From NCBI GenBank assembly GCA_052426225.1, contig JBNJNM010000012.1:496001-560000 (forward strand): 64,000 nt of DNA. Direction: 5' to 3'. The notes under the pieces were generated by a model. That model was not told the DNA's origin and did not search any database. It saw nothing but the letters and a program-made list of their open reading frames with translations. This DNA is from Zancudomyces culisetae HAW-14-8. Lineage: Eukaryota > Fungi > Kickxellomycota. The position numbers and the translations under genes were made by a program. Positions 6,165 through 54,453 of the stretch are shown here, piece by piece; the stretch's first letter is position 1; every line of letters starts with the position of its first letter.

Positions 6165-6167
6165 TGT

Positions 6168-6855
6168 TGTTGTAATTTTAGATTGCAGAAAATTTCTCAG
6201 GAAATTTCCGCAACTAAACCTACAAAAAGTTCTGCTAATAGAGGGGGATTGTTACTTGAATAAGTTTTACTTTATTTAACCAGTCAACCCTACCTTTTTA
6301 GCTTATATTTAATTTAGTTTTATGTATTTATTACTTCAATAAATGCGATAAAACTGGGTAAAATTACGCCCAACTCCTAAAATTTGGTGTGCAAAACAAT
6401 TAATTTTGGTCCAAAAATTAGACTCTGATACCTTTCTGATACCCTTTGAAAATTGTGTTACGCTTCACTACCTATGTTTTTTTTTGGTTTTAGGTAGGTT
6501 TTTGCTCAAATCACAAATTTCAATTTTATAGAGTAAAATCAAGTATTTTAGAGCTAATTTGTATTTTATTTAATGAATAACTTTTAAAAATAAAAATGAT
6601 AAAACCACCAAACTTGTGGTGGGGTTACTAGTAATATACTAGTACCTGACTAGCTATTTTATTAGAACTTTATATAATAGAAATTAAAATAAAACAATTA
6701 AAACTGAATATTTCTCCAACATTTGGGTAATTTATTACCCAAGAAATCCCAGATTTCTTGCTCGAACACCCGAGATAACGGTGGTTATTCGGTGTTTGAG
6801 AAGCTGTATGCTGTTCATCCAATAGTTTAGCTTGGGTAGAACTAAGCATACAACA
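6168..6855. repeat. Probable solo LTR (family c)
   Basis: TGTTGTA...TACAACA perfect terminal inverted repeat. Could be two fused units. Confidence 0.55.
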
Positions 6856-7215
6856 TGTTGTGTCGTAGTATTCAAAACCCTGAGAGTTCTCAATACTAGT
6901 CTCTGCACGTGACATACCGGTTCGGGTATAATCACTGGATATCGATGCACTGCTACCCCGTAGCGTGATGTGCATCAAGGGAGGCTCAGTTGAGCTATTA
7001 TCCCTATACAATGTCGGTGAGATAGTACTCACGGACATTGACTCCGGGCTTCTACGGATTCGAAGTTGACGAACACTTTCCGTCAACTCCCCAAGTGTTC
7101 GGGGGCTTAACACCCCTGTCTCTTGGTCCATGCTACTGCCCCTGGTGCTGTTTGATGAGATGGAAGAATCTCTCCTAGATTCATTCGCACCTGTACCAAA
7201 AAGATAGTTGATCAT
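6670..7215 (-). CDS. Ser-rich small protein of unit A (unknown function); the ORF runs out of the unit at 6861
   Basis: Conserved core SSMDQETGVLSPRTLGELTESVRQLRIRRSP. Versus copy B: 15 synonymous and 2 non-synonymous codon differences over 38 codons. Confidence 0.7.
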   Translation of the reverse strand: MINYLFGTGANESRRDSSISSNSTRGSSMDQETGVLSPRTLGELTESVRQLRIRRSPESMSVSTISPTLYRDNSSTEPPLMHITLRGSSASISSDYTRTGMSRAETSIENSQGFEYYDTTCCMLSSTQAKLLDEQHTASQTPNNHRYLGCSSKKSGISWVINYPNVGEIFSFNCFILISII

Positions 7216-7632
7216 TTATTTTTTATTTTACTTTTGTTTTTGCTGTTTAAAAATCTTTATTTAGATAATCTTTATTACTAATCCGTATGGTAGGACATGG
7301 ATGATGGTTTCTTTTCCACCATGTATCCTTTAAATATAAACTATAAAATCATTTTGTTCTCTAAATAGACTATAAACATGATAAGGTATAACTAATAAAG
7401 TAATATTTAGGTTTGATAATATTGATGTAGTATGAACATGTATGTGAACATTTCTCATACTACATTCATCATTATTGAATGGACGCAGTATGAAGAATTA
7501 ATTTCATGCTGAGTCCATTAATTTTCATTTTCATAATTTTTTAAATTATGTCCAGTTTTAATTCAAACTATTAAAATATGGAAATGTATATCCATGCATT
7601 AGTAGTAGTTTAATAGTTTTACTCATTCGACA
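6861..7632 (-). mobile_element. Structured ORF-bearing TGTCG...CGACA unit, copy A
   Basis: Terminal inverted repeats TGTCG/CGACA. Perfect 4-bp TSD GTTG (6857-6860, 7633-7636). Homologous to five other copies. Confidence 0.85.
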
Positions 7633-7636
7633 GTTG

Positions 7637-8092
7637 TGTTAGCGAATTCCAGGTTCCACTTCGCTATTGTGTAAAAAATATATTTATTTGATAGAAAAAC
7701 TATACTATGTACTAATGTTGTTAAGTTTTCACTATAGTAACTATAACTTTAATAAATAGACCAAACTTGTATTTTACGTGTTTATTTGATGATGTTTAAA
7801 CTATTTGAATAACTATCATATTTATACTTTTTTAAAACAACTATTAAACTTAAAACCTAAATATATTTTAAACTTAAAACTATACAAATTAAAATAATAA
7901 TCTAGAATGTTGCTGTAGAAAAAATCCAGAAGGATAAAAAAAACTAGGCAACACATAATATACTAAATAACCTATAATAAATATTAACTTATATTAAGAG
8001 ATAAACCTAAATATTAATAAATAGAAATAAATATGTAATTGGTAAGTTATTATTATATAATGTCTAGAGGTAGCTCTAGCCACTATATAACA
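7637..8092 (-). repeat. Solo LTR of the E3 family
   Basis: 456-bp reverse complement of 15420-15875; flanked by GTTG on both sides. Confidence 0.92.
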
Positions 8093-8094
8093 GT

Positions 8095-8426
8095 TGTTAT
8101 AGAATTTCATAATTCTATGATTATTTAATATTCTTATTGTATTATATGTTTATTACTAAGTATATTATTTTAGTATTATTGTTCTTTTTAATACTATATA
8201 TGTTTAACTTAATATTTTGTTAAGATGTGTTTTTAATTAATTCAAAGTGGGCGGTTGCTTTAACCCCCAGATAATAATATAATTAATGAGGAAATATAAT
8301 GTAAATAACTAACTAAACTATTGGACAAAAACCACAGGGGGAAAAAAGGTCCAATCTCAAAACTATTAACTAAAAACCTAATGAATAAATAAAGCTAATT
8401 ATATAAAATCGTATCTTTATACGACA
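8095..8426 (-). repeat. Solo LTR (family x)
   Basis: TG...CA termini. Inverted copy at 15086-15417. Contains the ATTGGAC...GTCCAAT LTR motif. Confidence 0.85.
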
Positions 8427-8427
8427 A

Positions 8428-9193
8428 TGTCGCATTATTAACAATTTGTACAATACCACGTGGATGTGCCTGAAAATGGTACACTCAGTGCGAAAATGCA
8501 AATTCATTTTTTGTTTACTTTTTTAAATAAATTCAAATAATTTTGAGCTCATTATGCAATCAATTTTTCATACTGTGCTAGTTCAATAATGATGAATGTA
8601 AAACGTAAAATGATCCCATGCATTTTACATTTAACATTAATAACAAACAAATTATTAATAATATTATAACAATAGTCATATTTTGGTATATAGTTTATAT
8701 ATAGTGGTTTAAAATTTGAATAATATATTTAAGGAGACGTATGGATGACATATGAAAACATCATCCATGTCTCGATACGGAATACTATAATAAAATAATT
8801 AAATAAAATCAAATATAAACCAAAAGATAAATTAGCAATAATGTTTTTAAACAGTTGGATTGGAACCGAATGTGACTCCAGGAGGGAGTCACACACTTCT
8901 ACCAGCATGAGCAGGGGCAGCAGCATGGATCAGGATGCAGGGGTATTAAGTCCCCGCACCCTTGGTGAGTTGACAGAAAGTGTCCGTCAACTCCAGATCC
9001 GTAGGAGCCCGGAAGAAATGTCGGTGAGTACAATTTCACCGACACTGTACAGGGGTATTAGCTCACCCGAGCACCCCTCGATGCACATTGCATTACGCAA
9101 TAGAAGTGCATCAACCATCAGTGATCGTACCAGAACCGGTATAACACGTGATGGTAGCGCTAATGGAAGTAGTGATACTTCACATTATGCGAC
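8428..9193 (+). mobile_element. Structured ORF-bearing unit, copy B; terminal A displaced to 14313 by the E2 insertion
   Basis: Starts TGTCGC and ends GCGAC|[E2]|CGACA. Inverted near-identical copy at 14318-15084. Confidence 0.85.
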
Positions 9194-9230
9194 TGTGGTA
9201 GGAATTATTACTACCAACGTTTTTGCTTAA
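8841..9230 (+). CDS. Ser-rich small protein of unit B; reads into the E2 3' LTR
   Basis: Conserved core GSSMDQDAGVLSPRTLGELTESVRQLQIRRSP; A-rich ATG context. Confidence 0.7.
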   Translation: MFLNSWIGTECDSRRESHTSTSMSRGSSMDQDAGVLSPRTLGELTESVRQLQIRRSPEEMSVSTISPTLYRGISSPEHPSMHIALRNRSASTISDRTRTGITRDGSANGSSDTSHYATVVGIITTNVFA

Positions 9231-12200
9231 TTGTAGTTTTTAATATTCTTATACTTGTTATTGTATAAGGGTACTTTCAAAATATATACTAGTATCTATT
9301 ATGTTTAGATTTATTTATTGTAAAGGACAAAGAATTTTATAATACTGAATTAAACTATTTTAAATAAAACTAAAATAGATTAAGAAATAAATTGATAACG
9401 ATTAGAACTACAACCTATCATATTCCCAAAAAACCACAAGGGGAAAAAATGGATTAGTCGGATTGTAATATCCAATAATTCATACGACAGGTCCCCCCCC
9501 TTAGTTCTGAGTGCCCCATGAAGCAACTGACGGCTGTCGAAATTGTCTTAGTGTTGGTCTTAGTCTCGCTGTTTGTATTTCTGGTATCATATTTCTATGC
9601 TCATGATACTTTTTAAGTCTGTCCCCGTTTACAACATCTCTATTTCTTTGGTCGTCTGCTATTGTATAAGTACCATTTCCGTGTACTCGTATGATGGTGT
9701 ACGGACCCTCCCACTTGGGATCGAACTTTGAACTCGTTTGTTCCACATGCTTTAAAACTTTGTCCCCATTTCCGAAACTCGCCAGTCGCACCGTTTTATC
9801 ATAGACTCCTTTTTCGTAAATCTTGTTTTTTACCATTGATTCAAATCCTGTTAGGCGAATATCCGGAAGATCCACGCTGATATGTTCTATTCTTTCTTTT
9901 ACGGCCTCCTCAAAGTCATCGACTTCTGTAGCTGGTTTCCATGATATTGGTGTGTTCAACTCGACACCATAAAGTAATTCTGATGGACTAAAGCCTGTAT
10001 TACGATTTTTCATTGTTCTTAAAGTTAACAGCAACTTCCAAATATAGTTATCCCAGTTCGCTTTGTCATGTTGACAAAGTTTTGATAGTAGATTTTTTAT
10101 ATTTTGGTTAAACCGTTCTACCTGACCGTTAGTTTGCGGTCGGTATGCGGTAGTGGGTGTGTGGTGAATATTTAAAAATTTATAGAAGTCGGTTGAGATG
10201 TCGCTCAGAAAATTAAATCCACGGTCTGTTATCAGTTGTGTTTGTACACCATAATACTGAACTACATCATATATCAAAAAGTTAATAACCGTTTCAGTGT
10301 TTATATTACTTACTGCTCTACAGATAGGCCATTTAGTTAGGTAATCTACGGCTGACAATATGTATCGGTTTCCATTATTAGAAATAGGGCTTATTGGACC
10401 AACCGCGTCTAGTCCCAGTATTTCAAACGGTTTTCTTGCCAGTATTGGAATAAGATTTGTTTTCCTTGTAACACTTTTTTGTATCGTTGGCAAAGGTCAC
10501 AGCTCTCCACAATCCTTTTTACAACTTGCAATAAATTTGGTCCTGTATACAATCTTTTTTTTCTCTCAAATGTATTATTTATTCCTTCATGTCTCTCCAA
10601 GTGTATCGCTTTTACTTTTTCTTCAGCATTTACCTCGGTTAATACTTCCCGCATACCGAACTTAGCTGAGTTTCTATGTAGTCTATCTTCATGCAGTCTG
10701 TACTTTAATGCCTTGTTTCTGAGCTTTTTCCTAAAGTCATCGTCCGCTCCTGATGGATAATTACCTGTTTCCAAATAGTGTTTTATAGCTTGATAATATA
10801 GGTTATCCATTGTGAATATATCAACTTCAACTTCACCTTCTCTAATGCCTTCATTTGTTTTTTCAACATTTTCATCTCTAGAAAGATAGTCTGAAGGATT
10901 ACTTCTCCCTGGTCTATGTCTGATTATGTAGTCATACTCGGACAAAATAATACTCCATCTGGCCAACCTTCCATTTAAGTATTTTGAGTCAAAAATTCTT
11001 ACCAACGCAGAATGGTCGGTTACTATGTCGAATTGTCTACCCCATAAATAGTTTCTAAATTTAGTTACTCCCCAAACCACTCCTAGTCCTTCCAAGTGGG
11101 TTGATGAATAATTTTTCTCTGCTGGACTTAATGATCTGCTTGCAAATTCGATGGGATGGTCTTGACTATTGATTTTTTGAGAGAGGATGGCACCTATTCC
11201 ATTTTTTGAAGCGTCAGTTGTCAACACGAATCGCTCCTCCCAGTTTGGAAAAATCAATACTGGAGCTTTTATTATTGAGTTTTTTAAGTATTCGGCTGCT
11301 TCGCTACACTCAGGCGTCCAGTTATATCTGGTATCTTTTTTTAACAGTTGATGTAATGGCTTAGCTTGTTGCGCATAGTTCTGAACAAACTTCCTATAAT
11401 ACCCGGTTAGGCCTAAAAATGACTGAAGCTCCTTGATAGACTTTGGATGTTCCAAATTCCTAACTGCTTTTACCTTTGACTCGCTTGTTCTTAATCCTTC
11501 TACACTGATAATGTGTCCTAAATATTCTAATCTGGTTTTTCCAAATGAACACTTATCTCTATGAAGTTTTATATTATTGTCTCTAAGTAATCTGAACACC
11601 TCCTCTAAATCTTTTGTATGTTGTAATTTGGACTTTGAGTATATTATAATATCATCAATAAATACTAAAGCTGATTTCCATAGTACTGATGATAATACCC
11701 TTTCCATCAGTCTTTGAAAAGTTGCAGGACTATTACAAAGACCGAAGGGCATGACATTATAACAAAACATGCCCCCTCCTGGGATCGCAAAAGCTGTTTT
11801 TGGCTTATCTGAGTCCTTCATCCTCACCTGCCAGAAACCGCTTAATGCGTCCAGCGTACTAAATATCTTTGCTCCAGCAACCGCAGTAAATATCTCTTCG
11901 ATTACTGGTAGTGCATACTGATCCTTCTTAGTGACCGCATTCAACTTACGGTAGTCTGAGCATAGTCGAATCTTCCCATTCTTTTTCCAGACCGCCACTA
12001 CTGGCGCGCACCAATCAGAAACACAAGGAGTTATAATACCTTGTTCTTCCATTTTGTTTATCTCCTCTGTTAGTTTTTCTCTCATGTAGTGAGGTACTCG
12101 ATATGGCTTAGATTTAACAGGTTTTGCTTCGCCAGTATCTATTTCATGAAGTATCCTGTCTGTCTGTGTTAGCTCTGACAATTCTGTTGCCATAAGATCG

Positions 12201-14308
12201 CTGTGTGCATCTATAATCCTTTGTATTTCCTCATCTATCTCCTCATTCTGTGTCTCTTTTTCCTCTAACCCTTCTATTCCTACCCCATATAGCTCATACT
12301 CATTATCTTTTGACTCAATCGTTATGTCTTTGCGTGTTGAAATTGACAAGGATATTTCATACTCCTCGTTATTCAACACTAACTCATTACTGTTTAAGTT
12401 TATAACCGCCCCGTGTCTTTTAAACCAGTTTGTTCCAAGGATTAACACATGGGTTCTCTGATCCATAACTGTCATGTCAACCGGAAATCTTTGCCCAGCA
12501 ATTGTAAGCGGTACCTCTGAAATTATACCCTTTGTTCCGTGTTTTCTTCCATCTGCTGTCACAATTATTTGGTTAGATTCTTTGTCGATATCCAACCCTA
12601 GCACTTCAGCAAAAGTATTTGAAATTACAGAACAGGCAGCGCCTGTATCCAGTATGGCCCAATAATGTCTCCCAAATATGCTTATAATGACTTTGCAGTT
12701 TGAACTTACATTTTCAATGCTGTTCACTTCTTTAATTTCATACTCTTCACCTTTTCTTATATAAGTAATGAGTTCTTTTCGCACCTGTGGAGAAGCCTCC
12801 AATAATTGAGCTAGATTTATATTAGCTTGTATACCTTGTAGTTCCTTTTTGATAGAATATTCATCTTTATCCGTTGTGAATTTTATAGGTATTCCCTTCT
12901 TTCTCTGTATTTTGGTTTTATAATATCTCTGTTACTTTTGACTTCTATCGTTGACTCACCTTCTCTTCTTCTCTTCACATCTATTTCTTTTTGTAGTTCA
13001 TTTTTTCTCTTTTCTGCTGCATAAACCTCTGTTTCACCTGCTTCGCACTCCAAAACTTGACTAACAATTACCTCGTTTTCCACTTCCAAGAAATTTACCT
13101 CCCTTTTATTTGTATTCAAAGGGATTGCATTACTTCCTGTCGCTACACTTGTGTTGGTTCGTGGGTTAGTTTCCCTCCTAGGACATTGGTATGGCCAATG
13201 ACCCGGCTCCCTACACTCGAAACAGAAAGGATTCTTTGGTGGTGGTCTGCTGTTACCTGCCTTAATGCTATTGATAATGCTAATACTAAGCTCGTCAAAC
13301 TTTTTAACAATCTTTTCATACATTACTTCAGGATCATCTTTTAAGGATCTAGCCTCTTGTATCAACTTTTCCTTTGTGACGTTTTCAAACAGATTTCCTC
13401 CGCTGCCCGATGGTGATTCGTTGCAAATACTTTCAAGTTGCTCATATCTTACTAATTGGTTTATTGCTTCTTCCCATGATTCAGCACCTTTTTCAAAAAT
13501 AAGTTTTTTAAATGATGGTTTCAGACAAGCAGTCAAGTACCGTAACTTATCTTTCTCCTCGGTTATACTTGCGGCTTTGAACAGTACTTAAAGTTTAGAT
13601 GCAGTCTCTAGAATATCCATGCTCTCCTGTTTGAATCCTTGGAGCTCTTCCCATGAAGATAACTCTCATTCTTTGCTTTTAAACTGTTTCAAAAATGACT
13701 CCTTGCACTTTGCCCAATCCTTGAATTTATCTTGATAGATAATGTACCACTGTTTTGCTTTACCGCCTAAATATGACTCTACACAATCCACGTACTCTGC
13801 TTCTTCAAAATCGTTCTTTTTCATGTAAATCTCAAACTTTTTTAGTTTTGTTTACTGTTATTTTTTATATTTAATATACTTTTTGATAATTATATAATTT
13901 TAGGTTATGGGGATATTAAATTTATGTAGTTGTAATATATAAATGTAACTGGTTTGGTTAGATATATTTACTTTAACTTAATATTTGTTTCAGCCTAGCT
14001 GGGAGCGCCAAATGTGGTAGGAATTGTTACTACCAACGTTTTTGCTTAATTGTAGTTTTTACTATTCTTATACTTGTTATTGTATAAGGGTACTTTCAAA
14101 ATATATACTAGTATCTATTATGTTTAGATTTATTTATTGTAAAGGACAAAGAATTTTATAATACTGAATTAAACTTCTTTAAATAAAACTAAAATAGATT
14201 AAGAAATAAATTGATAACGATTAGAACTACAACCTATCATATTCCCAAAAAACCACAAGGGGAAAAAATGGATTAGTCGGATTGTAATATCCAATAATTC
14301 ATACGACA
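9194..14308 (-). mobile_element. Ty3/gypsy LTR retrotransposon E2
   Basis: 296-bp LTRs (9194-9489, 14013-14308) with ~4 mismatches. TSD CGAC (9190-9193, 14309-14312). PBS TGGCGCTCCCAGCTAGGC (14010-13993). G-run PPT. Confidence 0.95.
9501..13850 (-). pseudogene. E2 gag-pol, disrupted (ORF pieces 12883-13536, 10409-12802, 9501-10493)
   Basis: CFECREPGHWPYQC, LDTGA, FIDDII, TTDAS, integrase core and GPY are present. Frameshifts occur and there is no clear gag start. Confidence 0.85.
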
Positions 14309-14671
14309 CGACATAACTGTCGCATAATGTGAAGTATCACTACTTCCATTAGCGCTACCATCACGTGTTATACCGGTTCTGGTACGATCACTGATGGTTG
14401 ATGCACTTCTATTGCGTAATGCAATGTGCATCGAGGGGTGCTCGGGTGAGCTAATACCCCTGTACAGTGTCGGTGAAATTGTACTCACCGACATTTCTTC
14501 CGGGCTCCTACGGATCTGGAGTTGACGGACACTTTCTGTCAACTCACCAAGGGTGCGGGGACTTAATACCCCTGCATCCTGATCCATGCTGCTGCCCCTG
14601 CTCATGCTGGTAGAAGTGTGTGACTCCCTCCTGGAGTCACATTCGGTTCCAATCCAACTGTTTAAAAACAT
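14273..14671 (-). CDS. Ser-rich small protein of unit B'; reads into the E2 5' LTR
   Basis: Identical to the copy B protein up to the unit end. Confidence 0.7.
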   Translation of the reverse strand: MFLNSWIGTECDSRRESHTSTSMSRGSSMDQDAGVLSPRTLGELTESVRQLQIRRSPEEMSVSTISPTLYRGISSPEHPSMHIALRNRSASTISDRTRTGITRDGSANGSSDTSHYATVMSCRMNYWILQSD

Positions 14672-15084
14672 TATTGCTAATTTATCTTTTGGTTTATATT
14701 TGATTTTATTTAATTATTTTATTATAGTATTCCGTATCGAGACATGGATGAGGTTTTCATGTGTCATCCATACGTCTCCTTAAATATATTATTCAAATTT
14801 TAAACCACTATATATAAACTATATACCAAAATATGACTATTGTTATAATATTATTAATAATTTGTTTGTTATTAATGTTAAATGTAAAATGCATGGGATC
14901 ATTTTACGTTTTACATTCATCATTATTGAACTAGCACAGTATGAAAAATTGATTGCATAATGAGCTCAAAATTATTTGAATTTATTTAAAAAAGTAAACA
15001 AAAAATGAATTTGCATTTTCGCACTGAGTGTACCATTTTCAGGCACATCCACGTGGTATTGTACAAATTGTTAATAATGCGACA
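14318..15084 (-). mobile_element. Structured ORF-bearing unit, copy B'
   Basis: 767-bp reverse complement of copy B, about 2 differences. Confidence 0.85.
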
Positions 15085-15085
15085 T

Positions 15086-15417
15086 TGTCGTATAAAGATA
15101 CGATTTTATATAATTAGCTTTATTTATTCATTAGGTTTTTAGTTAATAGTTTTGAGATTGGACCTTTTTTCCCCCTGTGGTTTTTGTCCAATAGTTTAGT
15201 TAGTTATTTACATTATATTTCCTCATTAATTATATTATTATCTGGGGGTTAAAGCAACCGCCCACTTTGAATTAATTAAAAACACATCTTAACAAAATAT
15301 TAAGTTAAACATATATAGTATTAAAAAGAACAATAATACTAAAATAATATACTTAGTAATAAACATATAATACAATAAGAATATTAAATAATCATAGAAT
15401 TATGAAATTCTATAACA
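15086..15417 (+). repeat. Solo LTR (family x)
   Basis: Inverted copy of 8095-8426. Confidence 0.85.
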
Positions 15418-15929
15418 ACTGTTATATAGTGGCTAGAGCTACCTCTAGACATTATATAATAATAACTTACCAATTACATATTTATTTCTATTTATTAATA
15501 TTTAGGTTTATCTCTTAATATAAGTTAATATTTATTATAGGTTATTTAGTATATTATGTGTTGCCTAGTTTTTTTTATCCTTCTGGATTTTTTCTACAGC
15601 AACATTCTAGATTATTATTTTAATTTGTATAGTTTTAAGTTTAAAATATATTTAGGTTTTAAGTTTAATAGTTGTTTTAAAAAAGTATAAATATGATAGT
15701 TATTCAAATAGTTTAAACATCATCAAATAAACACGTAAAATACAAGTTTGGTCTATTTATTAAAGTTATAGTTACTATAGTGAAAACTTAACAACATTAG
15801 TACATAGTATAGTTTTTCTATCAAATAAATATATTTTTTACACAATAGCGAACTGGAACCTGGAATTCGCTAACAGTGGCGTCAGCGACAGGATATCGGA
15901 AGTATCCTGATATTTTAGTAACTGAATTA

Positions 15930-21510: not shown

Positions 21511-22355
21511 TGTCGCATGAGTGAGCAATTGTACACTTAAGTACAATTGTAGTACAAATTGAAGTACACTCATCGCAGAATGAAAATTAAATTTTTGTAT
21601 CTGCATGAAATTCAATTTGGAAAATGAGCGACACAGTATGAAATTAATTCTACATGCTGAGTCGACTCAATAATGATAGAATTTAGTATGAAAAATGTCT
21701 TCATACTAAATCCTAAATTAAATAATAATTATTAGGTGTTCCCAACACCTAATTCAACATTCACTACATAAGTAAAATATGTAGAGGAAGTCAGTATCAA
21801 GTCATAATAGTTCTTATAGTACATAAGTAATATTAATTTAAACGTTTTGAAGATAGTAGCAGTTTAATAGAAATTTATATTTAAGGAACAAGAAGAGGCA
21901 AATGGAAAAACTTCATCCATGTTCTACTCTACTGATTAAATAGTATATTAATTTAAACACAATAAAAAAAACTTCAGAATATTATTTATAATAACCAATA
22001 ACCAAAAATGAACTATTTCTTTTATAGTAAAAGCGAATCCAAGAGGGATTCAGAAACTAGCTCCAGTCTGAGTACGGCTAGTAGCATGGACCAAGAGACC
22101 GGGGTTCTAAGCCCTCGGACTCTTGGGGAGTTGACAGAAAGTGTCCGTCAACTCCAAATCCGTAGGAGCCCAGAACCAATGTCCGTGAGCAGCATCTCAC
22201 CGACATTGTACAGGGGAAATAGCTCACCCGAGCACCCCTATATGCACATCACACTACGGGGTAGTGGTGCATCCTCATCAAGTGGTCATACCCGAACTGG
22301 TATGACACGTGATGAACATAATAATCATGATCTCCCGAATTATGATTATTACGAC
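21511..22355 (+). mobile_element. Structured ORF-bearing unit, copy C; ends CGAC, abutted by copy D
   Basis: TGTCGC start; same motifs and hairpins as copies A and B. Confidence 0.82.
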
Positions 22356-22475
22356 TGTCGAGATACTAGATCCGGGTATCACGGCATAGCAACGTGTATT
22401 GGATCAGATTACACGTTGCTGAACAATTACATTGTTCATTCAAGAAACGTTGAGATATGTATGAATGATTGTTAA
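22008..22475 (+). CDS. Ser-rich small protein of unit C; reads into unit D
   Basis: SSMDQETGVLSPRTLGELTESVRQLQIRRSPEPMSVSSISPTLYR. Confidence 0.7.
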   Translation: MNYFFYSKSESKRDSETSSSLSTASSMDQETGVLSPRTLGELTESVRQLQIRRSPEPMSVSSISPTLYRGNSSPEHPYMHITLRGSGASSSSGHTRTGMTRDEHNNHDLPNYDYYDCRDTRSGYHGIATCIGSDYTLLNNYIVHSRNVEICMNDC

Positions 22476-22979
22476 CAACACATTCATACACCAACGTTTC
22501 AACGCAAACATTAATATAGTAATATTGTTTTTTTATGGATGATAGTTTAGTGATTATTTATAAAGAGTTAGATTATATAAATAAAAGACATAGGATGAAT
22601 TTGAAAGCGTCATCCATGTCTTAATATACGGACGTATAAATACAAATCTAGTTAATAATAAAAAAATTATATCAAAACTACGAAAATGTACTATTCAAAT
22701 GGGTATGAAGATGAGGAGATGGCAATAAGTACCACTTCATCATCTTCCGGAAGAAGTACTGGCAGCAGCATGGATCAGGATGCTGGGGTATTAAGCCCCC
22801 AGACCTTGAAAGATCTGACCACTAGCGTGCGTCAGATACAGATCCGTAGCAGCCTAGGGAGTCCGTCGGGGATCAGACTTTCCCCTACACCTCCAAAGGG
22901 GTGTGTGTCACCCCATTCTGCGCAAATGGGGATAAGGTTACAGAGCAATTGTGTAACCCCCAGATCCCATATTGCGACA
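22356..22979 (+). mobile_element. Structured ORF-bearing unit, copy D (divergent subfamily)
   Basis: TGTCG...GCGACA termini; TCATCCATGTC motif; inverted relative at 29355-29975. Confidence 0.82.
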
Positions 22980-28960: not shown

Positions 28961-28965
28961 TGTCG

Positions 28966-29354
28966 TGTCGGTATTTATTTTCGATTTGTCGGTCTTATCC
29001 GACTTTACTGCTTTATCTAGTATTTTTTTTATTTACTACTAGTAAGCGGTAGGATCTTAGTTCTTATGTTAATATTGTTATAATATAATAAGTATATACT
29101 AAATACAAATCCGAAAATAAGATTGCTAAAAACATAGAAGAGAAAAAGCAGTGCTTAAATGCATTTTCCTCGTATATACTAAATTATTAAAATACAATGA
29201 ATAATATAATAACCATACGAAATTAAATATTATTTGGGAAATGATGATTTACGAATAGTGTAAAACCTCATAGGTGAAAAGCACAAATTAATTCATCACA
29301 TCTCACTCGCTATAACCCGAGTGAGACGCCCATCTGTCGATCTTTGATGCGACA
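28966..29354. repeat. Solo LTR (family e) inserted in the terminus of unit E
   Basis: TGTCG...CGACA termini; TSD GTCG (28962-28965, 29355-29358). Confidence 0.75.
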
Positions 29355-29647
29355 GTCGCAATATGGGTACTGGGGGTTACACAATTGCTCTGTAACCTTA
29401 TCCCCATTTGCGCAGAATGGGGTGACACACACCCCTTTGGAGGTGTAGGGGAAAGTCTGATCCCCGACGGACTCCCTAGGCTGCTACGGATCTGTATCTG
29501 ACGCACGCTAGTGGTCAGATCTTTTAAGGTCTGGGGGCTTAATACCCCAGCATCCTGATCCATGCTGCTGCCAGTACTTCTTCCGGAAGATGACGAAGTG
29601 GTACTTATTGACATCTCCTCATCTTCATACCCATTTGAGTAGTACAT
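29303..29647 (-). CDS. Ser-rich small protein of unit E
   Basis: Nearly identical to the copy D protein up to the unit end. Confidence 0.68.
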   Translation of the reverse strand: MYYSNGYEDEEMSISTTSSSSGRSTGSSMDQDAGVLSPQTLKDLTTSVRQIQIRSSLGSPSGIRLSPTPPKGCVSPHSAQMGIRLQSNCVTPSTHIATVASKIDRWASHSGYSE

Positions 29648-29975
29648 TTTGTAGTTTCTTTGTATTTTTTTATTATTATTAACTGGATTTTTATTTAATA
29701 CGTCCGTATATTAAGACATGGATGACGCTTTCAAATTCATCCTATGTCTTTTATTTATATAATCTAACTCTTTATAAATAATCACTAAACTATCATCCAT
29801 AAAAAATAATATTACTATATTAATGTTTGCGTTGAAACGTTGGTGTATGAATGTGTTGTAAACAATCATTCATACATATCCCAACGTTACTAGGATGAAC
29901 AATTCCATTGTTCAGCAACGATAATATGATCCAATATTTGTAGCTATTTCGATATCAGCAGTTAGTTCTTCGACA
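29355..29975 (-). mobile_element. Structured ORF-bearing unit, copy E; terminal T at 28961
   Basis: Reverse-complement homologue of copy D; marks the distal end of the stack. Confidence 0.82.
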
Positions 29976-38099: not shown

Positions 38100-41000
38100 T
38101 TATATTTCCCAAGTTCGTTCATTTATATCGTATCCCTTCCAATGTATCAAGTAATATAGTTTATTTCTTATAAGTTTTGAATCGAGTATTTCCTCAATTT
38201 CATACTCTAATTCATTGTTGATAATAATGGGTTCCGGCGTGGCTGGTTGATCAGAAATCACTGGAGGTGAATATTTATCTAATAGTGAAACATGAAAGAC
38301 TGGATGTATTTTTATTGAGACGGGGAGGTCAAGTTTGTAGACTAAATCACTGAGCTTTTCTTTGATTCTGAATGGTCCAATTTTCTTATAATCCAGTTTT
38401 TTACTAGGCCTAGTAGTCTGAATATTCTTTGTTAGAAGCCAAACTTTTTCACCTATAGTATATTCAGGATTTTTTCTTCTTTTCTTGTCTGAAGAATTTT
38501 TGAATGTTGATGAAGCGAGAGTGATTTGCCTATTGGTTTCTTTCGAATATATGATGGATTTGATTGATTCTTTCTTCCACAGAAGGCATAACATGGCTAT
38601 TGATTAAGGGAGGATCAAAGCGTGGGTTAAATCCGTAGTTAATGAAGAACGGGGATGATCCAGTAGATTCGTGAGTAGAGTTGTTATAGGCAAATTCTGC
38701 CAATGGTAGAAGATCTGTCCAATTATCTTGTTGATATGACAAAAAACAACGGAGATACTGTTCCAGAGTCTGATTGACTCTTTCGGTCTGTCCATCAGTT
38801 TCAGGATGGAACGCTGTTGAGAGCTTAATTTTGACACCTAAAGTGTTGAAAAGAGCTTTCCAAAACTTTGATGCAAACTGAGAGCCTCGATCAGAGATGA
38901 TCTCTTCAGGTAAACCGTGGAGTCTGATGATGTTATTGAGGATGATTTCAGAAGTTTCCATAGATGAAGGCAGTTTCTTTAGTGGTATAAAATGGCTCAT
39001 TTTACTGAACCGATCTACAACCACTAAAATTGTAGTATTCCTTTTTGAAAGGGGCAAATCTGTGATGAAATCCATTGAAATAGATTTCCATGGCGAATCA
39101 GGAGCGGGTAGTGGCTGAAGAAGTCCTTGTTTTTTCTTCCTTGATGTCTTGGATCGGTTGCATCTGTCGCAACCTGCGATGAATTCCTTGACTGAACGGT
39201 GCATATGTGGGAACCAGAAGTCTCTTTTAGTAGTTCTACTGTCTTTTTGTATCCATAGTGGCCTGTCAACTTGCTATCATGCCTTGAACTGATCACTTTA
39301 AATACTGATGCTTTAGGTACCACTACTAAATCTCCCAGAGTAATGAGATTGTCTGGTGTTGATCCTACAGCAAAATGTTTTTTAGCTGCTTCTGTTTCTG
39401 CCCTTTTAGTTAGTTCTATTCGCTCGTTTTGTGTTTGTAGGACGAGATCATCTAGGAGAAACGGATTGGTGGTTATTAGACTATCGATAAAAACTGAGGC
39501 TGGGAGTATTGTTTTGTCTTGTAAGGCGCGGTCATGATCCAAGTAACGCGATAAAATGTCAGACTTTCCACCAAGCTTTCCAGGCCTATAGGTGATCACA
39601 AAGTCGTATCTGCTGAACTCCAATGACCATCTTGCATGTCGCCTATTGAGGACCTTTGAAGTCTTGAAGGTTTCAAGGTTTTTATGGTCTGTCAAAACGA
39701 TGAACTGGTGTTGAGCTCCTTCTAGGTAGTGTCTCCATTCCTTAAGAGCCTTCACTATTCCTAGTAATTCCTTGTCATAAACATTATAATTAAGCTCGGC
39801 TGCCTTGAGTTTGTAGGAATAATAAGCACAGGGGCGGAAGTCACCTTTCTCATCGGCTTGAGACAGAATTGCACCAATGGCATAGTCTGAGGCGTCAGTC
39901 TCAACTATGAATTGCTTTCCAGGATCAGGATACTGTAACACGGGTGAAGTCGTGAGCATGGTTTTCAGTGTGTCATATGACTTTTGCTGATCAGGACCCC
40001 AAATAAACCTGGTGTCTTTCTTCAGCAGATTGGTCATCGGCAACGTAATCTGGGCATATTCAGGAATGAATTTCCGGTAATAGTTGGCGAATCCCAGGAC
40101 AGATTGGATATCCTTGCAATCCTTTGGAACCTTCCATTTGTGGATTGACTGAATCTTGGCTGGATCTGTACTGATTCCATTTGAAGTCACGCGGTGTCCT
40201 AAGAAATCCACTTCCTGTTTATGGAATTCGCATTTTTCCAAGTTGCAGTACAATCCATTTGTTAACAATTTTGCTAAAACTTTGTTTACATGGCTGATGT
40301 GGTCCTGGAAATTGTCGGAAAAAATCAGAATGTCATCAAGGTAAGCGATGGCGTAACGATCAAGCACATCTCTTAGAACATCATTGATGAAATGTTGGAA
40401 GGTCGCGGGCGCATTTGTCAGGCCAAAAGGCATGACATTGTATTCAAAATGTCCATAGCGGCATCTGAACGCGGTCTTCCATTCGTCCCCCTTCCTGATC
40501 CTGACTAGATTATAAGCACCTTTCAAATCTAGTTTGGTGAAATATTTGGCAGATCTAAGCCTATCAAAGGCTTCATCGATCCTGGGCAAAGGGTATCTGT
40601 TTTTTATAGTCATATCGTTGAGCTTACGATAGTCTACACAAAGGCGGAGGTCACCAGATTTCTTCTTAACGAACATTATTGGCGCTCCAGCAGAGGATTT
40701 GGACTTTCTGATGAATCCATTTGCTAAATTTTCTTTTATGTAGTCACGAAGCGTCTGGAGTTCCCTTTCAGATAATGGGTAAATAGGGCCCCATGGTGGT
40801 TTAGATTCATTTTTGATGTCGATTTGGCAGTCATATGATCTGCGAGGAGGGAGTTTAGAGGCTAGGGATAGGTCAAATACCTTGGCTAGGGAGGCATGTT
40901 CAGGTGGGATTTGAGGAATGAGATTGTTATTTGCTGAATGTTTTTCCGTGATTGGCTGTAACTGTGGAATTTCAGAAATTACGCGACTGATTGGTTTAAA

Positions 41001-42194
41001 ATTTTTTGTCCTTAATGTTTTTTTGTTTATTGGTTTTTTTGTTGTCTTTTTTATATAATTATTTGGTTGAATCGGAATAGTAAGAAGTGGCATTCCTATG
41101 TCAAATGCGGAAGAAACAGGTTCAGGTGGTGTCAAATCTGGTTGGGCTGAAATATCGTGAGCTGGTGTACTGAGAATCTCAGGAGTAATAGGTGTACTTG
41201 GGTAAAAAGTTACTGGAGGTGGTAAATTTACCATTGGTGGGGGACGTCCCAGGCGAGGTGAAATACTCTCGCGAGTGTGGTAATAACGGATTTGAGGTGA
41301 GGTTACGGTGGAAGTCAATGAACGTTCGGAATCGAAATCTGAATGGTATGCGGATAAATGGCTGTCATCTGACTGGTAGGCTTCCAAATTATGGTTTGTC
41401 TGTTGGATTGGGACTTGTGGCTGCCTGAGTGATGCGGTTATTTCGGTAATTTGCTGTAATACGTTGCTTGGGTTCAAATTTTGCCAATGTATTGCTTCAG
41501 GTTGAGTATCATAGAATCTTCCGAGATCATCATCGGATTCGCTCTCTGAAGATGTATCATTTTCCGAATAGCCATCCGAATCATCTTGGCTTATATCTTC
41601 TGAGTCCATGCTGTAATCTGATCCTGATACGCTCATTCTGTCAACCTTATTTTCTTCATCTAATACTAATTTATCATCCATCAGCTGACTTAGTTTTTTG
41701 ATGTCGTTTTTTGAAATTCTGCGGTTCGGATCAATATTAAGATTGTTTACGGCTATAGGCTTAGTAGTGTGGGTTTTTGTATCCATTGTCAGCTTTTTCC
41801 AGTTGATATCAGGGTTATGTTTTTGTAACCATGGAAGGCCTAATACAATTTCGGCATGAGTGGCGGGTATCACGTATAGGTCCGAGGTGAAGTGGTATTT
41901 ATCCTTGGTACTGAGCTTGATGTTCCGGACTACTGCATTGATACCTGAATTTGTGAGTGGTTTCCCATCAATAGTTTCTACGGGAATCGGGGTTTTCAGA
42001 TTTTCTATGGGCAAGGCTAATTGCTTTACGAGGTTTAGACTAATAAAATTTTCAGAAGCACCAGAATCAATTAGTGCATTAACTGTTATTAAGTTATTTA
42101 AAATAAACTTTATTAAAAATTTATTAGCTTGGAATCCCTGTAAGGTGAGCCCCAGTAATACCTTGCCGGTTATTCCTGGGGTTCGACGTTTAAA
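38100..42194 (-). pseudogene. Chromovirus pol (PR-RT-RH-IN-chromodomain), frameshifted in IN
   Basis: ORF pieces 39024-42269, 38530-39204 and 38100-38594. Confidence 0.88.
42140..42194 (-). promoter_or_regulatory. -1 programmed ribosomal frameshift signal
   Basis: T TTA AAC in the gag frame, a 6-nt spacer, then a CCCCAG/CTGGGG stem. Pol is in the -1 frame. Confidence 0.75.
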
Positions 42195-42610
42195 TTTGGC
42201 TCTGATGGTCTTGGGACACGTAACTGACAATTTCTCAATATGTGGCCGGGTTGACCACAATAAATGCATAAACTGTTGAGGATCCGTTTCTGGCGTTCTT
42301 CAGTTGTCAACGGTCCTCTAGGCTTTGGGATTACGGCATCAATATCCATTGGTTCTGGGGTCTCAGGGCGGTACTGTCTTGGCTGGCGCTGGAAGTTCTG
42401 GTTCTGGTACGCGTGTTGCTGAAACTGATTTTGCTGGTAATTTGGGAACGGCTTGTTCATTGGCTGAAATGGTCTGGGCTGTCTTGGAAGCGGGTTTGCT
42501 GCTGGATATGGACTTCTGAACTCGGATCTGTTCATATAGCTGAGGTTGGAATTAATTGTGTTTTCCAACTCAACTACTAGAGTTATTACTTCATCCAACT
42601 TTTCTGGCAT
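42170..42610 (-). CDS. Chromovirus gag C-terminal part (5'-truncated)
   Basis: PMDID motif and CCHC zinc knuckle. Confidence 0.8.
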
Positions 42611-53430: not shown

Positions 53431-54453
53431 CTAATTATAACATCCGCTCTCAATTGGGGTAGCGCTGGGGTCAAGTACAGGTAAAATCTTTTTGTAGTTT
53501 TCAAATCTCTTTTTAGCCTTTGCTTGATAGGCTCCACGGCACTCTAGTGCACCATTAATCATATTTGTCGAACTACCAAACTTTCCTGCCATTACACCGG
53601 GATCGGTTCTAACACGATCTCTCCAGAACCAAAAGCTTACATCCCATGCGGTTTTCTCATCGGTTCCGACGGTTTCTGGGTTCTTCAACAACCTGTCATC
53701 ACCATATAAAGCCTTTGATGCCGCTTGGTAGTTTGCAGCCCATGTTAGTTGGATATACCCACGACCATAGTAGATTTTCCCAGGAACATCCAATGGTGAC
53801 CCGTAAGCAGCCTTACAATCATTTGTCTTGCAGTAATATTCTTCCTTTGCTCTTAAGCCATCTGATTCCCACAGAATTTGTGTCAAAAACATGGCGGCTT
53901 CTCTCAAACTTGCTATTTTTCCGGTTGGCAAACCAGCCAAAAATGCTTTACATTGTGCTTCAGTTGGCTTGGGATAACCTGCAGCCTGAACCGCATTGTA
54001 AAATTTATTACAGTCAATGTTAAGTCCACCAGCTCCTTGAGCGGCTGAACTTGCTCCAGTTGATGATGATGATCCTATTGATGTACTTGGTCTAGGACGA
54101 CATGATGCTTGTTGTCTTCTGTATACGTTTCCTTGCATATTTTGGGGAGAGGCATAGCTTGGTTGTCTCTGGGCGACCGCAACCCTTCTATATACCATTT
54201 GCTGCATTTGGTTTGGTATTTCCTCTGCCCATTCATATCCTGGACCCTCATTCTGAATGTTGTTTTCAATATTGCTATTTTCTGATATGTCTTCTTGAAG
54301 ATTGCTGAACTTTTCGACGCGATCACGTCTCTGATATCCTAGTTTTCCACTAAGTGCAAATTTGTTGTAGTCTCCACCAAGTGGAGCAGGCATTCCGACA
54401 ATGGATGATGAAAATGCTAATGCAGATATACCGGCTACTATTCCTTTGTACAT
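53431..54453 (-). CDS. Secreted glycoside hydrolase family 19 chitinase, intronless
   Basis: Signal-peptide-like N-terminus and Ser-rich linker. GH19 motifs AAMFLTQILWES..., YYGRGYIQLTW..NY, SFWFW, INGALEC. Confidence 0.9.
   Translation of the reverse strand: MYKGIVAGISALAFSSSIVGMPAPLGGDYNKFALSGKLGYQRRDRVEKFSNLQEDISENSNIENNIQNEGPGYEWAEEIPNQMQQMVYRRVAVAQRQPSYASPQNMQGNVYRRQQASCRPRPSTSIGSSSSTGASSAAQGAGGLNIDCNKFYNAVQAAGYPKPTEAQCKAFLAGLPTGKIASLREAAMFLTQILWESDGLRAKEEYYCKTNDCKAAYGSPLDVPGKIYYGRGYIQLTWAANYQAASKALYGDDRLLKNPETVGTDEKTAWDVSFWFWRDRVRTDPGVMAGKFGSSTNMINGALECRGAYQAKAKKRFENYKKILPVLDPSATPIESGCYN

What the first reader, a model, noticed from the sequence alone, without database searches (positions are those of the whole stretch)
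8930..9160. Dual coding: the unit ORF overlies a chain of about seven hairpins with compensatory changes
Seen in copy B (sense), back to back: GGGG-TATTAAGT-CCCC; GAGTTGAC...GTCAACTC; TCCG...CGGA; TGTCGGTGA...TCACCGACA; AGGGGT..GCTC.GAGC.ACCCCT; GATGCAC..ATTGC/GCAAT..GTGCATC; ACCATCA.GTG...CAC.TGATGGT. Covariation: stem 2 AGTTGAC/GTCAACT (A, B, C) becomes ATCTGAC/GTCAGAT (D, E), two compensatory pairs that change the protein only conservatively (ELT to DLT, RQL to RQI). Stem 5 is AGGGA/TCCCT in A and AGGGG/CCCCT in B and C. The region is a GC island in very AT-rich DNA. Inference: a functional RNA (packaging or dimerisation signal, RT/Gag recruitment, or Dicer substrate) selected together with the peptide.
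Basis: partly seen in the sequence, partly recalled or inferred. Interest (0 to 1): 0.82.

Follow-up and report, generated by a model that had tools for sequence, protein, structure and literature searches.

The report
Gag starts inside hairpin-rich retrotransposon LTR
This stretch is a leftover end-repeat (solo LTR) of a fungal jumping gene whose capsid protein starts about 115 codons inside that repeat, over a chain of conserved predicted hairpins that likely act as replication signals on the element's own RNA, an enlarged version of a layout known from yeast Ty1.

Summary
The hairpins are real and the frame is under selection, but the 'unit' is not a stand-alone peptide or RNA gene. It is a solo LTR (8428-9193, TGTCG...CGACA) of a Ty3/gypsy family, in a pile of retrotransposons upstream of a tRNA-Tyr gene. 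Two Zancudomyces culisetae proteins carry this peptide fused, through the translated primer-binding site, to Gag (zinc knuckle), protease and integrase. So Gag starts 98-117 codons inside the 5' LTR. All seven stems are present. Folding beats synonymous shuffles (z -4.3 to -8.6, against -1.9 to +1.8 in 18 control tiles) and substitution-matched nulls (z -2.4 to -4.4). dN/dS is about 0.09. Covariation is thin: 6 double changes in 51 pairs over four independent copies, 5 of them in one lineage. Hairpins also fill the non-coding half of this LTR. Stem 2 encodes a conserved nuclear-export-signal-like motif (untested). Closest known: the Ty1 TIPIRT region, where Gag starts about 14 codons before the primer site. 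New variant of a known kind.

The parts
8428..9193 (+). Solo LTR, copy B (766 bp; begins TGTCG, ends CGAC; its last A was pushed to 14313 by the next insertion)
   Evidence: end motifs and junctions; alignment with the other copies
8724..8732 (+). TATA-like box, 34-37 nt before an invariant motif in 5 of 5 copies examined (inferred promoter)
8761..8770 (+). Invariant TCATCCATGT motif, 3' arm of a local hairpin; candidate transcription start (U3/R border), not shown
8841..9193 (+). LTR-encoded N-terminal part of Gag (117 codons, about 30% Ser/Thr, predicted disordered); no stop inside the LTR
8925..8927 (+). Second in-frame ATG (Met of SSMDQ), invariant in 8 of 8 aligned proteins
8871..9192 (+).
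8961..8999 (+). Codons 41-53, LGELTESVRQLQI: five hydrophobic positions with class-1a nuclear-export-signal spacing, largely encoded by hairpin 2
9194..14308 (-). Unrelated full-length Ty3/gypsy element (E2) inserted 1 nt inside the end of LTR B; target duplication CGAC at 9190-9193 and 14309-14312
14318..15084 (-). Copy C, near-identical inverted duplicate of B
6861..7632 (-). Copy A, solo LTR with 4-bp target duplication CAAC; matches the N-terminus of Gag-Pol protein P0007 (96.6% over 59 aa)
21511..22355 (+). Copy F, solo LTR; identical to residues 1-109 of Gag-protease protein P0006
22356..22979 (+). Copy D, divergent subfamily (98 codons)
29355..29975 (-). Copy E, 94% identical to D
15877..15894 (+). 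Primer-binding site of neighbouring element E3; it translates to the ASATG that follows the LTR-coded peptide in P0006 and P0007
155..235 (-). tRNA-Tyr gene; the pile of elements begins 8 bp upstream of it

Best explanation
The unit is a solo LTR of a Ty3/gypsy retrotransposon family whose Gag frame begins about 100-117 codons inside the LTR and reads through the primer-binding site, and its hairpin chain is likely the structured 5' leader of the element's genomic RNA, selected together with the Gag N-terminus. Shown: LTR-type ends, fusion of the peptide to Gag, protease and integrase in two database proteins, purifying selection on the frame, and folding beyond codon-aware nulls. Inferred: transcription starts about 35 nt after the TATA-like box, the ORF lies in a long R-U5 segment, and the stems serve steps that need the RNA 5' end (primer loading and minus-strand synthesis, dimer formation, packaging, the choice between translation and packaging), as the Ty1 TIPIRT region does. 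Also inferred: the Gag extension is a disordered, Ser/Thr-Pro-rich arm with a nuclear export signal. The copies in this window are recombination leftovers, so their open frames are likely relics of the active elements.
For: P0006 residues 1-109 are 100% identical to window 22029-22355 and continue YYDMASATG into a protein with zf-CCHC and aspartic protease. P0007 residues 1-59 match copy A at 96.6% and continue the same way into Gag, protease and integrase. ASATG is the translation of the primer-binding site that element E3 carries at 15877. All six copies start TGTCG and end CGAC(A), and the similarity stops there. The apparent C-termini differ in every copy because they are flanking DNA. dN/dS is 0.08-0.10 among B, A and F (Fisher p below 1e-7) and 0.32 for B-D; the other five frames have stops in all four copies counted. 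Synonymous-permutation z on the sense strand: B -8.6, A -6.5, F -6.4, D -4.3; 18 control tiles from gag-pol and a host gene give a mean of -0.3 and a minimum of -1.9. Pseudo-copies with the same protein and the same number of synonymous changes placed at random fold worse than the real copies in 6 of 6 comparisons (z -2.4 to -4.4 sense). 91% of cells pair, and there are 6 double changes against 2.0 +/- 1.1 shuffled, 0 of 500. G-U on the sense strand outnumbers G-U on the antisense strand 9 to 3 in A/B/F stems.
Against: No DNA of a full-length element was obtained, so the paired LTRs, the polypurine tract and the junction are read from two gene-model proteins. P0007 has no RT or RNase H Pfam hit, so that model is probably spliced across a lesion. 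The fusion is shown for the A and F types only; B and D types end in another frame and would need a 1-nt spacer before the primer site, as E3 has (inference). Only 1 of 6 copies (A) has a clean 4-bp target duplication. The pair-retention test is weak: sense p 0.012-0.29 in 6 non-independent comparisons, with no excess of double changes within A/B/F. 5 of the 6 double changes are in copy D, and the structure counted was derived from these same sequences. The antisense strand folds as well or better, and in D the G-U counts are 10 to 7. Hairpins are as strong in the non-coding upstream half (z -2.5 to -9.5), so they are not specific to the coding part.
Confidence: 0.8

Rival explanations
1. It is the same LTR with Gag inside it, but the hairpins are a mutational by-product: this family's reverse transcriptase would perfect short inverted repeats by fold-back template switching across the whole LTR, and protein selection only filters the result.
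For: Hairpins cover the whole LTR, including upstream parts with little homology between subfamilies. They are family-specific: LTRs of the four full elements give z -2.2 to +0.5. 176 of 192 stem cells in A/B/F are Watson-Crick and both strands fold alike. D has rebuilt its 3' stems in another register.
Against: The same stems are kept in register across copies that differ at 43-59% of synonymous sites. G-U pairs lean to the sense strand, 9 to 3. A terminal hairpin sits at the LTR end in B, A and F with unrelated sequences.
Confidence: 0.1
2. The solo LTRs themselves are expressed and matter: each has a promoter and an open frame, so it would make a truncated Gag arm, or a structured RNA, that poisons assembly or titrates export and so limits copy number.
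For: All six window copies keep an open frame, and the five aligned (B, A, F, D, E) keep the TATA-like box and invariant motif. At least five further such ORFs are annotated as genes in the relative's assembly.
Against: Open frames are expected in young insertions: neighbouring LTR pairs are 97-100% identical. C-termini are arbitrary flanking DNA with no shared stop.
Confidence: 0.06
3. It is an independent non-coding RNA or small-protein gene family (SINE, Pol III RNA, Dicer substrate), possibly read from the opposite strand, that attracts retrotransposon insertions.
For: Antisense folding is as strong. Elements insert right at its end.
Against: Fusion to Gag through a primer-binding site, TG...CA ends, no Rfam or tRNA match, and codon-position bias in the sense frame only.
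Confidence: 0.04

Closest known systems
Ty1 TIPIRT domain, Saccharomyces cerevisiae (Ty1/copia); PMC5454406, passages read
   Same: Gag starts before the primer-binding site: 53-nt 5' UTR, PBS at nt 95-104, so about 14 codons lie upstream of it. A structured region that overlaps 327 nt of GAG serves translation, packaging and RT initiation.
   Different: Here the family is gypsy-type and 98-117 codons lie inside the LTR, about eight times more. The structure is a chain of local hairpins wholly upstream of the PBS, whereas in Ty1 most of the structured coding part lies downstream of it and forms a long-range pseudoknot. Nothing has been probed here.
Ty3 of S. cerevisiae (Metaviridae); PMC5911963 and PMC11381356, passages read
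   Same: Gypsy domain order, CCHC nucleocapsid, cis signals at the RNA 5' end reaching into GAG, and insertion at the start of Pol III genes (the pile here begins 8 bp upstream of tRNA-Tyr).
   Different: In Ty3 the Gag start lies downstream of the LTR (recalled), and the primer is initiator Met tRNA with a bipartite site. Here the PBS is the one shared with neighbour E3 and lies inside the Gag frame.
Prototype foamy virus Gag N-terminal NES; PMC3033328, abstract read
   Same: A leucine-rich export signal in the Gag N-terminus.
   Different: Shown by experiment there; only a conserved pattern match here. Unrelated sequence, and encoded inside the LTR here.
Neighbouring tRNA-associated gypsy elements E1-E4 of this window
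   Same: Integrase 41-43% identical to that of P0007; similar LTR ends; same PBS as E3.
   Different: Their LTRs are 296-456 bp, 21-25% GC, unstructured (z -2.2 to +0.5) and carry no ATG frame longer than 11 codons running off an end.

Membership tests
Ty3/gypsy (Metaviridae) LTR retrotransposon | LTR with TG...CA inverted ends | tested here: met
   6 of 6 copies begin TGTCG and end CGAC(A)
Ty3/gypsy (Metaviridae) LTR retrotransposon | tRNA primer-binding site directly after the 5' LTR | tested here: met
   Read at protein level: P0006 and P0007 continue with the translation of the PBS found at 15877; DNA of the junction not seen
Ty3/gypsy (Metaviridae) LTR retrotransposon | Gag with CCHC knuckle, then protease, RT, RNase H and integrase last | tested here: met
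   P0007: zf-CCHC 381-397, protease 451-537, integrase 770-932; residues 434-815 align to the protease-RT-start and RNase H-end parts of neighbouring pol genes. The RT core is absent from the gene model.
Ty3/gypsy (Metaviridae) LTR retrotransposon | Two LTRs flanking the internal domain, with a polypurine tract | not testable with these tools
Ty3/gypsy (Metaviridae) LTR retrotransposon | 4-5 bp target-site duplication | tested here: inconclusive
   Clean CAAC duplication around copy A; 5 of 6 copies lack one, in a pile with later insertions and an inverted duplication
Ty1 TIPIRT-like cis domain | Gag start upstream of the PBS with structure over coding sequence | tested here: met
Ty1 TIPIRT-like cis domain | Long-range pairing of the RNA 5' end into gag, and a proven role in packaging or RT | tested here: inconclusive
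   The invariant upstream motif is complementary to the second-ATG context; predicted pairing 0.7 in F, 0.2 in A, 0 in B, D and E. Function untested.
CRM1-type nuclear export signal, class 1a | Five hydrophobic residues at 0, 3, 7, 10, 12 in a disordered region | tested here: met
   Present in 10 of 11 sequences scanned; the eleventh, P0007, starts after it. Shuffle frequency 1.4-3.3%. Model low-confidence, pLDDT 54. Spacing taken from the PKI example in PMC6488578 and recall.
CRM1-type nuclear export signal, class 1a | CRM1 binding or leptomycin-sensitive export | not testable with these tools
   Needs experiment; PMC6488578 (passages) stresses high false-positive rates for the pattern
Known Rfam RNA families | Match at gathering score | tested here: not met
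   Only the tRNA in the whole window; best E-value over the unit 6.8

The most novel reading that the evidence does not exclude
The LTR is a self-contained export and packaging module, like Rev and its response element written on the same bases: the first 117 codons give Gag a nuclear export arm, the hairpin array beneath them is the RNA signal that Gag binds, and solo LTRs left in the genome make the arm alone as a copy-number brake.
Probability: 0.12. Interest if true: 0.78.

Novelty: new variant of a known kind. Interest (0 to 1): 0.45.

Why it matters
LTRs are normally treated as non-coding. Here nearly half of the LTR is conserved Gag coding sequence and structured RNA at once, so every solo LTR leaves an open, promoter-linked frame that gene finders annotate as an orphan gene (at least five such 'hypothetical proteins' in the relative's assembly). 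It gives a natural series of diverged copies for asking how protein and RNA-structure constraints are met on the same bases. It also points to a testable export signal in a gypsy Gag. The principle is known from Ty1, which caps the surprise.

Tried and rejected
Rfam: nothing over the unit. Pol III RNA on the opposite strand: my first idea, dropped. Metagenome scan: one locus, L001, a GC-rich coiled-coil gene sharing a short word by chance; rejected. Viral contigs: none. Profile search of 1.84 billion representatives: 5 hits, four already known and one (P0009) a repetitive protein, judged spurious. Search with the Gag region of P0007, lengths 635-2022 only: itself alone. ESM Atlas: no usable hit. 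Structure prediction: pLDDT 54, pTM 0.11, not used for a fold search. Sequencing runs: no RNA holder listed; three runs laid were contigs, which cannot show strand or start. One search used a mis-registered structure string for two helices and is superseded. Long-range pairing of the upstream motif with the second ATG: inconclusive. No palindromic loop is shared by all four copies (read). The integrase tree has no well-supported inner branch. Eight paper searches listed no description of this family or of a gypsy Gag with so long an LTR-coded part; these were judged from listings, and the library lacks most subscription papers.

Full report
Observation. Two more flank them, at 8871-8893 and about 9158-9192. 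The region folds far better than dinucleotide shuffles on both strands (z -7.3 and -7.9, 0 of 100). An nhmmer search finds six copies in the window, which I label A (6861-7632, -), B (8428-9193, +), C (14318-15084, -), F (21511-22355, +), D (22356-22979, +) and E (29355-29975, -). B and C sit in a 1560-bp inverted duplicate that is 99.7% identical, and D and E are 94% identical, so there are four independent copies. The quoted compensatory changes are real.

Setting. Positions 243 to about 30000 are a pile of four full-length Ty3/gypsy elements and many shorter blocks, starting 8 bp upstream of a tRNA-Tyr gene. The blocks meet end to end at ACA...TGT junctions with spacers of a few bases. Each unit copy is such a block, 620-845 bp long, starting TGTCG and ending CGAC(A). 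Element E2 went in one base inside the end of copy B and duplicated CGAC. Copy A is flanked by CAAC on both sides. The ORF fills the last 294-355 bp of each block and has no stop inside it; the C-termini differ in every copy because they are read from flanking DNA.

What the ORF is. A search at similar length returned five proteins, all hypothetical proteins of Zancudomyces culisetae. A search among longer proteins returned two more. P0006 is identical to copy F over residues 1-109 and P0007 matches copy A at 96.6% over residues 1-59. Both go on with MASATG and then into Gag with a CCHC knuckle and an aspartic protease; P0007 also has integrase. ASATG is what the primer-binding site of neighbouring element E3 encodes. 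The junction therefore reads as LTR end, primer site, Gag, in one frame with no residues missing. The unit is a solo LTR, and its ORF is the N-terminal 98-117 codons of Gag. The integrase is 41-43% identical to those of the four neighbours, so this is a separate family; no full copy lies in the window. Limits: the junction is read from gene-model proteins and not from DNA, P0007 has no RT hit, and the fusion is seen for A and F types only.

Selection on the protein. Over 61 gap-free codons, dN/dS is 0.09, 0.08 and 0.10 among B, A and F, and 0.32 for B against D; A-D and F-D are saturated at synonymous sites. Between B and A, 24 of 38 differences are at third positions. The other five frames have stops in all four copies counted. 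The peptide is about 30% Ser/Thr with several Ser/Thr-Pro sites, has no Pfam family and gives a low-confidence model. Its conserved core carries five hydrophobic residues with the spacing of a class-1a nuclear export signal in 10 of 11 sequences scanned; P0007 starts after it. Shuffles of the same composition give the pattern 1.4-3.3% of the time. I spotted the motif by eye, so this figure is after the fact, and PMC6488578 (passages) warns of many false positives.

Selection on the structure. Synonymous permutation gives sense-strand z of -8.6 (B), -6.5 (A), -6.4 (F) and -4.3 (D), with 0 of 100 as good in each; 18 control tiles give -1.9 to +1.8. Because the copies differ at 43-59% of synonymous sites, I asked whether the real changes spare the structure. 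Pseudo-copies with the same protein and the same number of synonymous changes placed at random fold worse in 6 of 6 comparisons (z -2.4 to -4.4 sense, -2.0 to -5.7 antisense). A stricter count of retained pairs is weaker: sense p 0.012-0.29, antisense 0.037-0.56, and no excess of double changes within A/B/F. On a 51-pair structure 91% of cells pair and 6 pairs change on both sides, against 2.0 +/- 1.1 shuffled; five are in D, and the structure came from these sequences. Strand evidence is slight: G-U sense 9, antisense 3 in A/B/F, and 10 to 7 in D. Hairpins are not confined to the ORF. The non-coding upstream half gives z -2.5, -5.3, -7.1 and -9.5, while the LTRs of the four full elements give -2.2 to +0.5; of six other blocks one reaches -6.9.

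How it likely works. A TATA-like box lies 34-37 nt before an invariant ten-base motif in 5 of 5 copies. I infer that transcription starts near that motif, which puts a short AT-rich leader, the ORF and the nine hairpins at the RNA 5' end, upstream of the primer site. That RNA must be translated, packaged and copied into minus-strand DNA, and the same bases must encode the Gag arm. In Ty1, a region of 53 nt of UTR plus 327 nt of GAG, with the PBS at nt 95-104, does these jobs (PMC5454406, passages). Ty1 and Ty3 Gag have been proposed to help export their RNA (PMC4974528, passages), and foamy virus Gag has an N-terminal export signal (PMC3033328, abstract). I give this reading 0.8. Which step the stems serve is not shown. 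The rivals are hairpins made by template switching (0.1), expressed solo LTRs acting as a brake (0.06) and an independent RNA or peptide gene (0.04).

Comparison and novelty. It works like the Ty1 5' domain and is filed as a Ty3/gypsy LTR on ends, primer site and domain order; paired LTRs could not be tested and the target duplication is clean in 1 of 6 copies. It differs from Ty1 in superfamily, in the length of the LTR-coded part (98-117 against about 14 codons) and in having its stems upstream of the primer site. Targeting of tRNA genes is known for Ty1-Ty4 (PMC7175516, PMC5911963, passages). Eight paper searches listed nothing on this family; no supplements were read. Verdict: a real feature, a new variant of a known kind, interest 0.45.

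Noticed in passing
window 243-28209: LTR-pair identity of the four full elements falls with distance from the tRNA-Tyr gene: 100, 98.6, 98.0, 96.8%, as if new insertions push older ones outward.
   Followed up: partly
window 9190-9193, 14309-14313, 28961-29358, 7629-7636, 6857-6860: New elements insert at or one base inside the ends of older LTRs (CGAC duplicated at E2 and at block 28966-29354; CAAC present three times around solo LTR3 and copy A). This suggests targeting of LTR ends or repeated use of one site.
   Followed up: partly
run X1, contig laid on window 8887-9193: A contig identical to copy B over 307 bases continues, after 12 letters (the first is the LTR's last A), into sequence matching the 5' half of a tRNA-Tyr gene on the opposite strand: an insertion in or beside a tRNA intron.
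   Followed up: no
window 6165-6856: Another LTR-like block with strong hairpins (z -6.9) and no clear similarity to this family; its minus strand stays open for about 60 codons from one end.
   Followed up: partly
window 7637-9196 and 14316-15875: 1560-bp inverted duplication covering copy B, a 330-bp block and an E3-type LTR on either side of element E2; D and E likewise flank E4 in inverted orientation.
   Followed up: partly
window 8588-8635 and equivalents in A, F, D: A hairpin in the non-coding upstream half is kept in all four copies with different arm sequences, including double changes between A, B and F (read by eye).
   Followed up: partly
P0006 residue 110, P0007 residue 60: In A and F types the last LTR base and the first two bases of the primer site form an in-frame ATG, which could give a short Gag without the arm.
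   Followed up: no
P0005 C-terminus: The tail of this D-type gene model looks like a translated tRNA gene (recalled pattern, not tested), which would place a D-type LTR beside a tRNA elsewhere.
   Followed up: no
window 53431-54453 (-): Glycoside hydrolase 19 chitinase with a long low-complexity N-terminus.
   Followed up: no
window 38100-42610 (-): A further gypsy element of a more distant lineage (integrase 26-30% identical to the others); the ORF at 38100-38594 ends in what looks like a chromodomain (recalled pattern).
   Followed up: no
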